DNA from: Neocallimastix sp. 'constans'
Lineage: Eukaryota
Reading direction: 5' to 3'
DNA: 64,000 nucleotides
NCBI GenBank assembly: GCA_050613775.1
Contig: JBODTK010000158.1
Coordinates: 124,001 to 188,000 of the forward strand
The stretch's first letter is position 1; every line of letters begins with the position of its first letter. The notes below the pieces were generated by a model that saw only the letters and a program-made list of their open reading frames with translations, made no database searches and was not told where the DNA came from. The position numbers and the translations under genes were made by a program. This document shows, piece by piece, positions 16,456-31,695 of this stretch.

Positions 16456-19400
16456 TTAATTTTTATTCTTTTTTGGTATATTAATACGTTTTAAAATTTC
16501 TTGTATCCATTGTTCTATAATATCTATTTCTTTTTCTTCTTGTTGCTTATCAAGGGTGGTATATTTATAGAATCGTTGAGCACCTAAGCTTTCAAATTTT
16601 TCATCTATTAATCGAGCAGCCTCACAGAACTTTTTACGTTTAGAATCACCTAATCCAAAGACTGCATATTTCATATTTTCAAATCTTGCAGTGGATTTAT
16701 CAACTTTGTTAAGTCTATTCCAAAATTGATGAGCATTAGGTGGGAAAGTACCTTTGAAAGTGGAAGTAACAATAATAAGAGTTTTCATTTTTCTTAAATC
16801 TTCAATATCAATGCGGTCAGCACTGAAAATGTTAATATTAGTAATGCCAGCTTCTTTTGCTTCATCAGAAAGCATTCCAGCAACATCTTGAGCATGTTCT
16901 GATTCTGTTCCAAATATAATGTTTAATTGATCATCACTATCATTAATTAAACTTCTTCTACCAACATCTTCTTCAATTTCATGTGTTTCAATACAAATTA
17001 ATGAATTTAATAACTCTTCAGACCAATGATTAACAGAAGTAACTACATCATCACTGTTATCAAAATTTAATTCGGTATATTTATAGATTTCAGAAGCACC
17101 AAGGTTTTGGAATTGTTTATTCAATTTTCTAGCCGCTGCGCAGAAATCTTTTTTATTTTTATCACCAATACCAAGAACTGCGTATTTAATTTTACTCATA
17201 TCAAAAGTTTTCTTTGTTTTTTGAGATAATTCTTTCCAAAGTTCTATAGCATCTGGTGGGAAGTTTCCATCAACTGTCGATGTAATAAAAATAATATTTT
17301 TCATCTTTAAAAGATCATCAACTTTAAATGTATCGGCTTCATGAGTATAAACAAATGGGAATCCAGCGTCTCTAGCATCTAATGCAACAATTGCTGCTAT
17401 ATCTTCAGCATGTGTTGATTTAGTACCAAATATTACATGTAATTCTACTTGAAGATCACATTTTTTAATATTTTTGTTAGCATTACTAGAATTATTTTTT
17501 GTTAGTTTAGTTGACTTTCCTTTTTCATTAGATTTATTATTATTTTTAAAATATGGAATAATTATATTCAATATTTCATGAATCCAATTATTAATAACTT
17601 TAATTTGATCATCATTACCATGACTATCAAGGGTGGTATATTTATAGAATCGTTGAGCACCTAATCTTTCAAATTTTTCATCCATTAATCGAGCAGCCTC
17701 ACAGAATTTTTCACGTTGAGAATCACCTAATCCAAAGACTGCATATTTCATATTTTCAAATCTTGCAGTGGATTTATCAACTTTGTTAAGTCTATTCCAA
17801 AATTGATGAGCATTAGGTGGGAAAGTACCTTTGAAAGTGGAAGTAACAATAATAAGAGTTTTCATTTTTCTTAAATCTTCAATATCAATACGGTCAGCAC
17901 TGAAAATGTTAATATTAGTAATGCCAGCTTCTTTTGCTTCATCAGAAAGCATTCCAGCAACATCTTGAGCATGTTCTGATTCTGTTCCAAATATAATGTT
18001 TAATTGATCATCACTATCATTAATTAAACTTCTTCTACCAACATCTTCTTCCATTTCACGTGCTTCAAGTTCAATCAATGAATTTAATAATTTTTCTGAC
18101 CAGCTATTTATAATATTTTCTGGATTTTCTGCATGTTCAATATCTAATTCAGTGTATGGATAAAATTCAATAGTACCAAGATCTTGGAATTTTTTATTTA
18201 AAGCTTTAGCAGCAATACAATATCTTGGACTAGTGCGATATCCTAAACCAAGAACAGAATATTTAACATTACTCATATTAAAAGTTTCCTTATTCATGCT
18301 GGAGAGTTTATTCCAAAGATTAAGGCAATCTTCTGGTAATTTACCAGAATATGTTGGGACAATAAAAACAAAATTTTTCATTTTCAGAAGATCCTGAACA
18401 TCGATTGTATTAGCTTCATGAACATACACAAATGGAAAACCTGCATTTTTTGCATCTGATATTATCATATTTGCAATATCTTTTGAATGATTTGTCTTAG
18501 TACCATAAATCACATGAAATTCAGTTTGAAGATCACATTTTTTTATATTACAATTACTATTTTCATCTTCATTAGAAGTAACTGAGGAAGTGGTTTCTTT
18601 TTCCGAAATATTTTCATCTGACACTGATTTTTTATTATTACCAGAATTTAAACTTTTAAGGAAATCTTGAATCCATTTATTAACTTCTTCTTCTTGATCC
18701 TTATCACTTTGATCATCAAGAGTAGTATATGGGAAGAATCGTTTACCTCCTAATTTTTCAAACTTTTCATTAACTAGACGTCCAGCTTCACAGAATTTAG
18801 AATAAGATGAATCACCTAATCCTAATACTGTAAATTTCATATTAGTTAATGAAGTATTATCTTTAGTAGCTTTTGATAATCTATTCCAGAATTCTATAGC
18901 ATTTGGTGGGAATTCACCTTCACCTGATGTGGAAGTAACAAATGTTACATATTTCATATTTTTAAGTTCATCTAAACTAACACTATCGGCAGGATGAATT
19001 ACAACTTTTGAAATACCTGCTTTTTTAGCATCCTCAGAAATCATATCAGCAATAGCTTCAGAAGTGCCAGTTTCTGTACCAAAGATAACATCTAATAATT
19101 CAATTGATTCATTATTATTATTATTATTATCAGACAAATTAGATTTTTCTTTTACTGATTTATTTATTTTTGAAACAGGTTTTTCAGTACCAGATAAATT
19201 TTGAAGTAAATCTTGAACCCAACGATTAACAATATCTTCAGGGTTTTCTTCACTTTGATCATCGATAGTAACGTATTTACATATCCTTTTAGCACCTAAA
19301 TCTTCAAATTTTTCGTTAACTAAACGAGTAGCTTCACAGAATTTAGAATAAGATGAGTCACCCAATCCTAATATAGCAAATTTCAAATTGTCTAATGATG

Positions 19401-22400
19401 TATTATCTTTAGTAGCTTTTGATAATCTATTCCAGAATTCTATAGCATTTGGTGGAAATTCTCCATCACCAGAAGTCGACGAAACAAAGGCAACATTTTT
19501 CATTTTCTTAAGATCATCTAAACTAACACTATTAGCTGGATGAATAATAACTTCTGAAATACCTGCTTTCTTAGCATTTTCAGAAATAATATCAGCAATA
19601 GCTTCAGAAGAACCGGTTTCTGTACCAAAGATAATATCCAACGATTTTACAGATTGGCAAGAAGCTTTACAAGCGATTGGGTTTACTAGTATAGCTTCTG
19701 ATTGTTCTTCTTCAGTAGAAGTTTCATTATTTTCTTCAGTTGAAAAAGTACCCTTTTCTGTTTTAACATTTTCATATACAGGTTTTTCATTACCATTATT
19801 ACTATTACCATCACCATTAGTTGAGTTTGTTAAATTTTTAAGCATATCTTGAATCCATTTATTAACTTCTTCTTCTTGATCCTTATCACTTTGATCATCA
19901 AGAGTAGTATATGGGAAGAATCGTTTACCTCCTAATTTTTCAAACTTTTCATTAACTAAACGTCCAGCTTCACAGAATTTAGAATAAGATGAATCACCTA
20001 ATCCTAATACTGTAAATTTCATGTTAGTTAATGAAGTATTATCTTTTGTAGCTTTTGATAATCTATTCCAGAATTCTATAGCATTTGGTGGGAATTCACC
20101 TTCACCTGATGTGGAAGTAACAAATGTTACATATTTCATATTTTTAAGTTCATCTAAACTAACACTATCGGCAGGATGAATTACAACTTTTGAAATACCT
20201 GCTTTTTTAGCATCTTCAGAAATCATATCAGCAATAGCTTCAGAAGAACCGGTTTCTGTACCAAAGATAACATCTAATAATTCAATTGATTTACTTGAAG
20301 TTTCAACGGTAGATACAGATTTAACTTCAGCTTTTGATTTATCTATCTGAGTATTATTATTATTATTATTATTATGATTATTATGATTATCATCATTAGT
20401 AGAGGTTGTTAAATTTTTAAGCATATCTTGAATCCATTTATTAACTTCTTCTTCTTGATCCTTATCACTTTGATCATCAAGAGTAGTATATGGGAAGAAT
20501 CGTTTACCTCCTAATTTTTCAAACTTTTCATTAACTAAACGTCCAGCTTCACAGAATTTAGAATAAGATGAATCACCTAATCCTAATACTGTAAATTTCA
20601 TGTTAGTTAATGAAGTATTATCTTTTGTAGCTTTTGATAATCTATTCCAGAATTCTATAGCATTTGGTGGGAATTCACCTTCACCTGATGTGGAAGTAAC
20701 AAATGTTACATATTTCATATTTTTAAGTTCATCTAAACTAACACTATCGGCAGGATGAATTACAACTTTTGAAATACCTGCTTTTTTAGCATCCTCAGAA
20801 ATCATATCAGCAATAGCTTCAGAAGAACCGGTTTCTGTACCAAAGATAACATCTAATAATTCAATTGATTTACTTGAAGTTTCAACGGTAGATACAGATT
20901 TAACTTCAGTCTTTGATTTATCTTTTTGAATAGTATTATCATTATTATTATTATTATTATCATTATGATTATCATCATTAGTAGAGGTTGTTAAATTTTT
21001 AAGCATATCTTGAATCCATTTATTAACTTCTTCTTCTTGATCCTTATCACTTTGATCATCAAGGGTACTGTATGGGAAGAATCGTTTACCTCCTAATTTT
21101 TCAAACTTTTCATTAACTAGACGTCCAGCTTCACAGAATTTAGAATAAGATGAATCACCTAATCCTAATACTGTAAATTTCATGTTAGTTAATGAAGTAT
21201 TATCTTTTGTAGCTTTTGATAATCTATTCCAGAATTCTATAGCATTTGGTGGGAATTCACCTTCACCTGATGTGGAAGTAACAAATGTTACATATTTCAT
21301 ATTTTTAAGTTCATCTAAACTAACACTATCGGCAGGATGAATTACAACTTTTGAAATACCAGCTTTCTTAGCATCTTCAGAAATCATATCAGCAATAGCT
21401 TCAGAAGAACCGGTTTCTGTACCAAAGATAACATCTAATAATTCAATTGGTTCATTTGAATTATTCTTAGTTACATTTTCTTTTGTATGGATAACAGGTA
21501 TATTAGTTGGTATTTCCTTTTTTATTGGTTTTGTTTTTGGTTCTGATTTTGGTTTTGGAACATAAGGAGGGGCATTTGGATCTCTGATATGCTTTAAAGA
21601 AGCATATATTCCTTCAGAATATATTTGAATTTCTTTTTCAACAATTTTTTCATTACTATTATCAATTGTTGTATATTTAAAGAATCTTTTACCACCAAGT
21701 TCTTCAAGTTTATTATCAATCATCTTAGCCGCTTCACAGAACTTTGGATTATTCTTATTATCAATACCAATCACAGCAAAGTTTAACTTTGATAAATCAA
21801 GAGATATTTTGGTTTCTTTAGAAATTCTGTTCCAGAAGTACGCAATACTTGGTGGAAGAGTACCATCAACTGTAGTAGTAACAATTACAACGTATTTCAT
21901 CTTTTTAATATCATCTAATTGAATTTTATTAGCTCCACAAACAGTAACTTCAGAAAATCCATTATTTAAAGCTTCTTCTCCAAGAAGTTCTGAAATATCT
22001 TCTGTTAATCCACGTTCAGTACCATGAATAATATTTAAATCACATATTTTTGCACGATCATGCCTTACTCCTTTAGAATGAATTGGATAGGCATCTCTTC
22101 TATTACCATTTTCATCAACTTCTTGGGCTCCAAGTTTATCAAATATTTCTTGTTGCCAATTTTCAATAACTAAATCTGGATTTTGTTGGATGTCATTTTC
22201 ATCAATAACAGTAAACTTTTGGAAACGTACTGCTCCTAAATTGCTTAATTTTTTATCTAAAAATTTAGCAGCTTTACAGAAATCTCTGTAAGAAGAATCA
22301 CCTAAACCTAAAACTGCATATTTTGTTTTGCTCAAATTTAATGTATCCTTGGTTTCTTGGGAAAGTCTCTTCCAGAAAAGTAATGCATCTGGTGGGAATT

Positions 22401-31400: not shown

Positions 31401-31695
31401 TATAAATAATAAATAAAATTAGTTTCAAAAATTATATTAATACAAATAGTAATTATTTATATTCTTATTTAAAATATAACAAATTATATTTTAATAAGGT
31501 AATATAAATTTTAAAATCTTTTAAACTTTATATATTAAAATTTTTAATTTAGAAATTAATTAATTTTTCATTATTATTCATGAGTTAATTCATATTATAT
31601 ATAAGTTAATAACTTATATATACCTTTAATAACGATTTGTTTGAAATTTCTTTCAAAACATTATATTTTGAAATTTTTAGAATTGATGAATTCAT
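16456..31695 (-). CDS. PFO: Pyruvate:ferredoxin (flavodoxin) oxidoreductase fused to 18 tandem flavodoxin-like domains, with a putative organellar presequence (~4601 aa)
   Basis: Exons 31695-31624, 31363-31162, 30992-30511, 30311-30138, 29913-29096, 28831-26311 and 25992-16456 are all GT-AG and phase-compatible (13806 nt). PFO motifs: [74 protein letters not shown]...CP, CTGCTLC...[49 protein letters not shown]. These are followed by 18 units of the G-T-E-x-G / STSGxGEFP / GLGDSxY / LGxxR / DD type. Confidence 0.93.
16460..26695 (-). repeat. Coding tandem array of 18 flavodoxin-like domains, mostly ~530-640 bp per unit including linker
   Basis: Approximate domain starts on the minus strand: 26690, 25870, 25335, 24765, 24235, 23695, 23155, 22590, 22045, 21450, 20870, 20290, 19645, 19105, 18525, 18010, 17450, 16930. 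Confidence 0.9.

What the first reader, a model, noticed from the sequence alone, without database searches (positions are those of the whole stretch)
16456..31695. Giant PFO fused to 18 tandem flavodoxin domains with no NADP reductase module
Seen: four ORFs from the track plus three small exons splice in frame into one ~4601-aa protein. A complete PFO is followed by 18 flavodoxin-like units and then a stop, with no FAD- or NADP-binding domain. Established: PFO normally reduces a free ferredoxin or flavodoxin. Pyruvate:NADP+ oxidoreductase (PNO) of Euglena and Cryptosporidium fuses PFO to one flavodoxin plus a cytochrome P450 reductase-type FAD/NADP module. I do not know of a described 18-fold array. 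Inference: this is a PNO-like ancestor that lost the reductase and amplified the FMN domain. The result could be a tethered multi-electron reservoir or wire feeding hydrogenase or other acceptors, possibly sparing iron-containing ferredoxin.
Basis: partly seen in the sequence, partly recalled or inferred. Interest (0 to 1): 0.95.

Follow-up and report, generated by a model that had tools for sequence, protein, structure and literature searches.

The report
Gut-fungal enzyme carrying eighteen flavodoxins
This anaerobic fungal gene encodes a pyruvate-oxidising enzyme with 18 flavodoxin electron-carrier domains strung on its tail (14 and 17 in relatives); it likely supplies low-potential electrons inside the hydrogen-producing organelle, and would explain a long-disputed enzyme that is present there but does not reduce ferredoxin in assays.

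Summary
Confirmed. Seven GT-AG exons on the minus strand (31695-16456) give a 4601-aa, 517-kDa protein: basic presequence, complete pyruvate:ferredoxin oxidoreductase (PFO) with its catalytic motifs, 18 diflavin-reductase-type flavodoxin domains, stop, no FAD/NADP module. It is not an assembly or splicing artefact. A relative's intron-free 3821-aa ORF carries PFO plus 14 units, a third lineage has 17, and unit types keep their order. Published Caecomyces hydrogenosome peptides hit all 17 units or their linkers, and one crosses the key splice site. Only about half the units (10 of 18) keep canonical FMN loops; the others are conserved but altered. Published work finds this protein in hydrogenosomes without pyruvate:ferredoxin or pyruvate:viologen activity, finds almost no ferredoxin, and calls its function unknown. 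Best reading (about 0.45): a tethered pyruvate:flavodoxin oxidoreductase supplying low-potential electrons for upkeep, chiefly radical-SAM activation of pyruvate formate-lyase, rather than bulk H2. Descent from PNO is neither shown nor rejected. Other flavodoxin arrays found reach 6 units, and only 2-3 on PFOs. The gene is annotated and its size was noted in 2021, but my searches found no description of the array. New variant of a known kind; interest 0.8.

The parts
31624..31695 (-). Exon 1: ATG and start of a basic, S/K/N-rich presequence (about 90 aa, 2 acidic residues), predicted hydrogenosomal targeting peptide
   Evidence: similar N-terminus in P0287
31162..31363 (-). Exon 2: rest of the presequence (alternative in-frame donors at 31168 and 31177)
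   Evidence: length agrees with P0287
30511..30992 (-). Exon 3: PFO domain I (YPITP, SEAG, HVASR motifs)
30138..30311 (-). Exon 4: end of PFO domain I
   Evidence: continuous in P0287
29096..29913 (-). Exon 5: PFO domain II and start of the CoA-binding domain III (GFGSDG loop)
26311..28831 (-). Exon 6: PFO domains III-VI (two CxxCxxCxxxCP motifs, proximal-cluster cysteines, GGDGW..N motif) and most of flavodoxin unit 1
25993..26310 (-). Intron 6 (318 bp, phase 0, inside unit 1); unspliced it stops after five codons
   Evidence: same position in P0161; RNA runs lack about this share of words
16456..25992 (-). Exon 7: 9537 bp, end of unit 1, units 2-18, short basic tail and stop
25933..26688 (-). 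Flavodoxin unit 1 (type A, canonical loops; split by intron 6)
25420..25866 (-). Unit 2 (type B, altered phosphate loop and third loop)
23776..25326 (-). Units 3, 4, 5 (types C, D, D; canonical)
22714..23685 (-). Units 6, 7 (type E; loop 2 one residue short, no stacking Tyr; 94% identical pair)
22132..22578 (-). Unit 8 (type F; canonical)
21595..22035 (-). Unit 9 (type G; altered)
18649..21435 (-). Units 10-14 (type H; canonical; recent duplicates, dN/dS 0.04-0.28)
16483..18516 (-). Units 15-18 (types I, J, K, J; all altered, still predicted to fold as flavodoxins)

Best explanation
The gene encodes one 4601-aa protein, a complete PFO followed by 18 flavodoxin domains and no NADP-reducing module, which likely works inside the hydrogenosome as a pyruvate:flavodoxin oxidoreductase with its carriers tethered, and is predicted to supply low-potential electrons for upkeep reactions rather than for bulk H2. 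Shown: architecture, splicing in relatives, intact catalytic motifs, conserved order of unit types, and translation in the hydrogenosome fraction of Caecomyces (published peptides). From established PFO/PNO chemistry: pyruvate + CoA gives acetyl-CoA + CO2, and electrons pass from TPP through three [4Fe-4S] clusters to an FMN domain. Inferred: unit 1 and the other canonical units (10 here, 9 and 7 in relatives) bind FMN and swing on flexible linkers to one-electron clients. The prime client would be the radical-SAM activase of pyruvate formate-lyase (PFL), the main pyruvate enzyme of these fungi; hydrogenase maturases and Fe-S assembly would be others. The array would stand in for a free ferredoxin/flavodoxin pool. 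The altered units would either hold FMN at other potentials (short loop, as in P450 BM3) or act as flavin-free docking or spacer domains. The recently multiplied type-H units would set carrier dosage.
For: Catalytic, cluster and CoA-loop motifs align with solved PFORs 6cin and 1b0p; the PFO part is 86% identical between the window and P0287. No FAD or NAD domain in the window or in P0287. Unit 10 folds as a diflavin-reductase FMN domain (pLDDT 95; TM 0.91 to NDOR1). Types A-K keep their order in three lineages with 55-80% ortholog identity, against 14-47% for six of the seven linkers compared. PMC13556243: protein 530611 has 548 spectra in hydrogenosome fractions, ferredoxin gave one spectrum in one of three replicates, no enzyme reducing ferredoxin was found, and H2 comes from NADH, which leaves this protein as the evident candidate low-potential source. 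PMC8561657: PFO 17 TPM against PFL 1967 TPM, and PFL carries the flux, as expected of an upkeep enzyme. PFL activase uses an electron from reduced flavodoxin (PMC12288474 legend) and is present in eukaryotes with PFL, with a cited paper on Neocallimastix (PMC6856725). That E. coli uses its PFO to reduce flavodoxin for PFL activation is recalled (Blaschkowski 1982), from no call. Loop length sets FMN redox behaviour in CYPOR and BM3 (PMC8508823).
Against: No pyruvate:methyl viologen activity was found in Caecomyces organelles with a working positive control, although PFOs usually reduce viologen (own knowledge). This fits an inactive, oxygen-damaged or differently specific enzyme as well as a shielded one; H2:viologen activity in the same preparation was only 20 +/- 11 mU/mg, P 0.11. 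No FMN binding, redox potential or client has been measured, and I did not examine any fungal PFL activase or its location. One flavodoxin would suffice for activase supply, so the role does not by itself explain 14-18 copies. dN/dS between some altered units is high (U16/U18 0.84, U6/U9 0.65, U6/U7 0.61). PFO activity was reported in two Neocallimastix isolates and not in a third (as cited).
Confidence: 0.45

Rival explanations
1. Energy route: the tethered flavodoxins pass pyruvate electrons straight to [FeFe] hydrogenase (or buffer them for it), giving a ferredoxin-free pyruvate-to-H2 path.
For: Flavodoxins can replace ferredoxin as hydrogenase donors (own knowledge). The 2021 model needed PFO for H2. 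PFO activity was reported in two Neocallimastix isolates. The pyruvate assays in the section I read used external ferredoxin or viologen only.
Against: Caecomyces hydrogenase-NuoEF makes H2 from NADH alone. Formate:(acetate+ethanol) is near 1 and PFO mRNA is about 100-fold below PFL. No viologen reduction.
Confidence: 0.2
2. Polyprotein: one presequence imports a precursor that is cut in the organelle into PFO(-Fld1) and free flavodoxins of several kinds; the chemistry is as in the best explanation but the carriers diffuse.
For: Linkers are mostly long, low-complexity and variable; some carry conserved Arg-Arg sites (linkers 8-9, 15-16, 17-18); organellar polyproteins exist in other eukaryotes (recalled). 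Peptide data cannot show that the chain stays intact.
Against: Many linker peptides were detected in Caecomyces. The 15-16 and 17-18 linkers are predicted as continuous helices. No shared cleavage motif is evident across all linkers (by eye).
Confidence: 0.15
3. Redox buffer or oxygen defence: the array stores reducing equivalents and discharges them to oxygen-scavenging or repair enzymes after air exposure, including re-activation of damaged systems.
For: 7-10 canonical FMN sites per chain; PFL and hydrogenase are oxygen-labile.
Against: Low expression limits capacity; reduced flavodoxins can leak electrons to O2; no expression data under oxygen were seen.
Confidence: 0.1
4. Mostly neutral expansion: only unit 1 (or a few units) works, and the rest is tolerated tandem duplication in a repeat-prone AT-rich genome; or the PFO acts on another 2-oxoacid.
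For: Copy number varies (14, 17, 18); half the units have lost canonical motifs; some dN/dS values approach 1; no pyruvate activity was found.
Against: Each altered type is kept in place in three lineages at 55-78% identity, is translated, and types I, J and K are predicted to fold; type-H duplicates are under purifying selection; pyruvate-site motifs are intact.
Confidence: 0.1

Closest known systems
Pyruvate:NADP+ oxidoreductase (PNO) of Euglena gracilis (P0039), Cryptosporidium muris (P0104) and Blastocystis (P0053)
   Same: PFO domains I-VI followed directly by a diflavin-reductase-type FMN domain with the same loop pattern as the canonical units; best PFO-part hits are PNO-type proteins at about 52%.
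   Different: PNO has one FMN domain plus FAD and NADP domains; this protein has 18 FMN-type domains and no FAD/NADP module, so it cannot make NADPH by itself. 116 of the 120 listed long PFO relatives have one flavodoxin, 3 none, 1 three.
Homodimeric PFOR (Moorella 6cin, Desulfovibrio 1b0p; names of organisms recalled) and bacterial pyruvate:flavodoxin oxidoreductases
   Same: Whole catalytic core and cluster ligands.
   Different: They use free carriers; 0 of 80 bacterial PFO loci had a unit-like flavodoxin in any frame within up to 3.5 kb.
Paratrimastix pyriformis PFO KAJ4457011.1 (P0110, three flavodoxins) and unnamed P0230 (two)
   Same: PFO plus tandem C-terminal flavodoxins and no FAD/NADP domain.
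   Different: 2-3 units, which group with each other and not with the fungal units, so a separate expansion. I found no functional study; the passages searched in PMC9746703 do not mention flavodoxin.
Unnamed diflavin reductases with 2-6 flavodoxin domains (P0139, P0140, P0142-P0147; 'MTRR-like' is my label for some)
   Same: Tandem amplification of a diflavin-type FMN domain.
   Different: Mostly keep the FAD module (17 of the 23 scanned), have no PFO and at most 6 units.
Annotated gut-fungal 'PFO': C. churrovis 530611, N. lanati 623223
   Same: Almost certainly the same gene: the published peptides match P0161 and P0291 letter for letter; about 539 kDa was quoted for N. lanati PFO.
   Different: Those papers treat it as an ordinary PFO or 'PFOR and flavodoxin; sulfite reductase'; the passages and sections I read do not describe an array.

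Membership tests
Homodimeric-type PFO/PFOR | All domains (POR_N, PFOR_II, POR, EKR, 2x Fer4, TPP domain) in one chain | tested here: met
   P0287. The TPP domain is shown by alignment to structures, not by Pfam.
Homodimeric-type PFO/PFOR | Pyruvate/TPP-site residues, GDG..N motif, 12 cluster cysteines, CoA loop | tested here: met
   Motifs align with 6cin and 1b0p; the roles of the residues are recalled.
Homodimeric-type PFO/PFOR | Pyruvate- and CoA-dependent reduction of ferredoxin or viologen | not testable with these tools
   Published: not detected in C. churrovis organelles; reported in two Neocallimastix isolates, not in a third.
Pyruvate:NADP+ oxidoreductase (PNO) | Diflavin-type FMN domain directly after PFO | tested here: met
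Pyruvate:NADP+ oxidoreductase (PNO) | C-terminal FAD- and NADP-binding domains | tested here: not met
   Absent in the window and in P0287; the other full-length exon-7 orthologs also end just after a flavodoxin unit.
Pyruvate:NADP+ oxidoreductase (PNO) | Descent from within the PNO clade | tested here: inconclusive
   Outside in quick trees; AU tests do not reject grouping with PNO (p 0.64; p 0.33).
Flavodoxin / diflavin-reductase FMN domain | Five-stranded flavodoxin fold | tested here: met
   Unit 10 pLDDT 95, TM 0.91 to 4h2d; units 15-18 fold alike. The other 13 units were tested by profile only.
Flavodoxin / diflavin-reductase FMN domain | Phosphate loop, full-length second loop and stacking aromatic residue | tested here: inconclusive
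   Met in 10 of 18 units (9 of 17 and 7 of 14 in relatives), altered in 8; the criteria are my own motif rule.
Flavodoxin / diflavin-reductase FMN domain | FMN binding and one-electron cycling | not testable with these tools
   No ligand or redox data.
Hydrogenosomal matrix protein | N-terminal presequence and presence in the organelle | tested here: inconclusive
   Composition fits; no predictor was run here. The ortholog was detected in hydrogenosome fractions and N. lanati PFO was predicted mitochondrial.

The most novel reading that the evidence does not exclude
The gut-fungal hydrogenosome has replaced its free low-potential carriers by one enzyme-tethered switchboard: a PFO bearing a position-conserved library of 14-18 flavodoxins in two redox classes, each type tuned to its own client (PFL activase, hydrogenase maturases, Fe-S assembly, hydrogenase itself). 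This would be a new way of wiring an organelle's electron distribution and would settle the decades-old dispute over fungal PFO.
Probability: 0.25. Interest if true: 0.92.

Novelty: new variant of a known kind. Interest (0 to 1): 0.8.

Why it matters
Whether and how PFO works in anaerobic fungal hydrogenosomes has been disputed since the 1980s-90s, and a 2026 study left its function unknown and asked for it to be characterised. The architecture changes the question. The enzyme carries its own acceptors, so assays with added ferredoxin may test the wrong reaction, and metabolic models that couple it to ferredoxin and H2 may be miswired. The single domains are small and easy to express, so FMN content, potentials and clients can be tested at once. 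These fungi feed H2 and formate to rumen methanogens and are used for lignocellulose conversion. It is also the longest flavodoxin array found in my searches, with a natural series of loop variants for studying flavin redox tuning.

Tried and rejected
No whole genome is held for this window, so free flavodoxins, a separate FAD/NADP reductase, ferredoxin and PFL activase could not be sought in this organism. The ESM Atlas gave only generic flavodoxin clusters under 0.9. Earlier scan notes returned nothing. The careful PFO tree did not finish, and the quick tree was not the best tree, so I withdrew my first reading that PNO origin is excluded. My recollection that the Paratrimastix proteome paper discusses flavodoxin-fused PFO was not borne out (0 occurrences). 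Rejected: assembly artefact (divergent units, orthologs, peptides); separate PFO and array genes (P0287, junction peptide); truncated PNO (the array end is conserved in orthologs, and no ORF of 80 aa or more other than a short unassigned one lies within 2.4 kb downstream); rigid electron wire (variable linkers; pTM 0.35, weak evidence with 5 sequences). No complex prediction was sent, because no fungal client sequence was in hand. Runs X21-X24 with 0.00-0.04 of the words are not used as evidence.

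
Full report
CONTEXT. The window is 11-30% GC with spliced eukaryotic genes nearby: BRO1/ALIX, Timeless and CSE1. The named close hits to the array are from Piromyces sp. E2 (77-80%). I infer an anaerobic gut fungus (Neocallimastigomycota). No genome is held for it.

OBSERVATION. Seven minus-strand exons with GT..AG borders splice to 4601 aa and one stop, 517 kDa. 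The first 90 residues hold 16 basic and 2 acidic residues, as a targeting presequence would (inference). Pfam on the four long ORFs gives the PFO domains and 1 + 17 Flavodoxin_1 stretches, with no FAD or NAD domain. The PFO motifs align with solved PFORs across domain I, domains II-III and domains III-VI. Eighteen units of about 148 aa are joined by linkers of 22-64 aa. Most pairs are 21-60% identical. Units 10, 11, 12 and 14 are 95-99% identical but differ at synonymous sites, and the longest exact repeat is 388 bp.

ONE PROTEIN? The weak point was intron 6, which splits unit 1. Three lines support splicing. (a) For 24800-28800, the six runs on record as RNA that hold the stretch carry 0.92-0.93 of its words, as do three guessed-RNA runs. 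The nine best DNA-labelled runs (possible sources of this DNA) carry 0.98-0.99, and two more carry 0.93-0.94. Loss of the 318-bp intron predicts 0.91. (b) P0287, a cluster member of P0001, is one uninterrupted 3821-aa ORF on an 11,630-base contig, so it has no room for introns and is by inference a transcript. It has the presequence, a PFO 86% identical to the window's and 14 units, and it runs through all the junction sites I inspected. (c) P0161, an exon-6 ortholog, reads into the same intron and stops three codons later. The C. churrovis peptide table (PMC13556243, supplement 2, parts 2-3 read, 188 rows for protein 530611) has [12 protein letters not shown], which continues past that point (1 of 3 replicates), and the next peptide in 3 of 3. 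Peptides crossing the sites of introns 4 and 5 are there too.

CONSERVATION. The unit types run A B C D D E E F G H H H H' H I J K J in the window (18), A B C D E E F G H H H I K J in P0287/P0001 (14), and A B C D D E E F G H H H H' H I J K in P0161+P0291 (17). That P0161 and P0291 lie on one contig is inferred from the equal contig length, 16,290. Orthologous units group by type in the tree and are 55-80% identical; six of seven linkers compared are 14-47% identical and one (8-9) is 77-85%. Mapped by eye onto P0161/P0291, the published peptides hit all 17 units or a flanking linker; units 6/7 and 10/11 share domain peptides and are told apart by linker peptides or a unit-specific one. Peptides do not prove that the chain stays uncut.

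TWO CLASSES OF UNIT. The units are FMN domains of the diflavin-reductase type: best solved matches are NDOR1 and CPR, and the unit-10 model (pLDDT 95) matches 4h2d at TM 0.91. By my motif rule, 10 of 18 units keep the phosphate loop, full-length second loop and stacking Tyr, as Euglena and Cryptosporidium PNO do; relatives have 9 of 17 and 7 of 14. Types E, G, I, J and K have a second loop one residue shorter and lack the Tyr; type B has an altered phosphate loop. In CYPOR a one-residue deletion of this loop, mimicking P450 BM3, inverts the potentials and gives an anionic semiquinone (PMC8508823, passages read). Loss of the Tyr as well may mean weak or no FMN binding (inference). Units 15-18 are still predicted to fold, with no fixed mutual arrangement (pLDDT 80, pTM 0.35, 5 sequences). 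Within-window dN/dS is 0.04-0.28 among type H, 0.27-0.38 for other canonical pairs, and 0.41-0.84 for altered pairs (12 pairs, few sites).

HOW UNUSUAL. Of 292 long relatives of exon 6 the best 120 were listed: 116 have one flavodoxin, 3 none, and 1 three (Paratrimastix PFO). A profile of 14 units against 1.84 billion representatives gave 8284 hits. Among the 146 new proteins of the best 150, my recount gave 83 with one unit, 48 with two, 9 with three, 3 with four, 2 with five and 1 with six. Of 23 proteins scanned, 17 keep a FAD domain and two are PFO + 2 or 3 units without it. Caveat: the long fungal arrays themselves were absent from that list (a 682-aa fragment appeared instead), so other long arrays can hide the same way. 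No unit-like flavodoxin was found in 80 bacterial PFO loci (80 kept of 260).

ORIGIN. All sampled fungal units form one clade (95 SH-aLRT, 17 rows; 99/92, 6 canonical rows), so the array grew by duplication within gut fungi. The PFO part falls with eukaryotic sequences against 13 gut bacteria, and outside a PNO clade in the quick tree. But a tree holding it with four PNO-type proteins is 8.7 log units better and not rejected (p-AU 0.64), and fungal plus PNO FMN domains as one clade is not rejected either (p-AU 0.33). I used 40 of the 120 fusion proteins and 13 of 75 bacterial ORFs, and no trichomonad, Entamoeba or Giardia PFO. The window's sequence is compositionally odd. Origin from PNO is plausible and unproven.

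LITERATURE. [quoted passage not shown] PMC8561657 (passages; five supplements searched without a hit): PFO 17 TPM against PFL 1967 TPM, size quoted as about 539 kDa, the word flavodoxin absent. PMC9026988, PMC6856725, PMC4989108, PMC10703272, PMC11316075, PMC9746703 and PMC12288474 were seen as passages only. PMC11316075 notes metamonad PFOs with added ferredoxin- or flavodoxin-like domains. Seven searches touching this gene or architecture listed nothing whose title or abstract start describes the array; most listed papers were not opened. The library lacks most subscription journals, and bioRxiv supplements, theses and MycoCosm domain pages were not visible, so the array may be recorded there.

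MECHANISM. An intact PFO with no NADP module can only hand its electrons to one-electron carriers, and here these are attached. The organelle makes H2 from NADH, has little ferredoxin and runs mainly on PFL, whose activase needs an electron from reduced flavodoxin. I therefore favour an upkeep role: low flux, low-potential supply for radical-SAM and Fe-S work, with canonical units as carriers and altered units as retuned carriers or docking modules (0.45). Against it stand the missing viologen activity and the lack of any measured client. Rivals: direct feed to hydrogenase (0.2), processed polyprotein (0.15), oxygen buffer (0.1), largely neutral expansion or another substrate (0.1).

VERDICT. 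Observation confirmed (about 0.95 for one spliced PFO-array ORF; the exact count among units 10-14 awaits long reads). It works like a PFO/PNO front end, is a PFO by domains and motifs, and is not a PNO. New variant of a known kind. Interest 0.8, because it recasts an open, recently restated question in directly testable form.

Noticed in passing
P0126 (544 aa, unnamed) and P0128 (Piromyces sp. E2, partial): Gut-fungal proteins that join array-type flavodoxin units (type E or H) to a YgbA_NO domain (PF11756). P0126 starts with a presequence resembling this gene's and a remnant of unit 1: apparently a derived paralog with a possible client domain.
   Followed up: partly
P0002 (Barthelona sp. 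PCE, 3240 aa) and P0003: Two PFO modules, one flavodoxin and a molybdopterin oxidoreductase module in one chain (for P0002): another unusual PFO fusion.
   Followed up: partly
P0141 (4122 aa, unnamed): Seven [FeFe]-hydrogenase domain stretches, three flavodoxins and a FAD domain in one ORF; real array or assembly artefact not checked.
   Followed up: no
P0139, P0140, P0142-P0147, P0149: Diflavin reductases with 3-6 tandem flavodoxin domains; P0139 has six near-identical copies.
   Followed up: partly
P0079, P0090, P0108: PFOs with no flavodoxin, fused to a pyridine-nucleotide oxidoreductase/Fe-S module, nested among PNOs in the quick tree.
   Followed up: no
window 37206-38126 (+) and 45368-46360 (+): Two similar hydrophobic ORFs of about 300 aa, membrane-protein-like by eye, with no Pfam hit.
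   Followed up: partly
window 3469-8528 (-), about 47400-53000 (-), about 61200-63000 (-), 40492-40821 (-): Neighbouring genes: BRO1/ALIX, Timeless, CSE1 and an ankyrin fragment; no metabolic clustering with the PFO gene.
   Followed up: partly
window 14282-14611 (-): 109-aa ORF downstream of the gene that looks by eye like a transposase fragment (recalled resemblance); no Pfam hit.
   Followed up: partly
window about 6000-6650: Long pentanucleotide-type microsatellite inside the BRO1 gene region, seen as repetitive translations.
   Followed up: no
window linker 8-9, about 22036-22131 (-): Unlike the other linkers compared it is 77-85% identical across three lineages: a candidate interaction or processing site.
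   Followed up: no
P0123 (unnamed, 85-93% to window units): A close relative runs H, I, J with no J-K pair between, so copy number also varies at the C-terminal end among near kin.
   Followed up: partly
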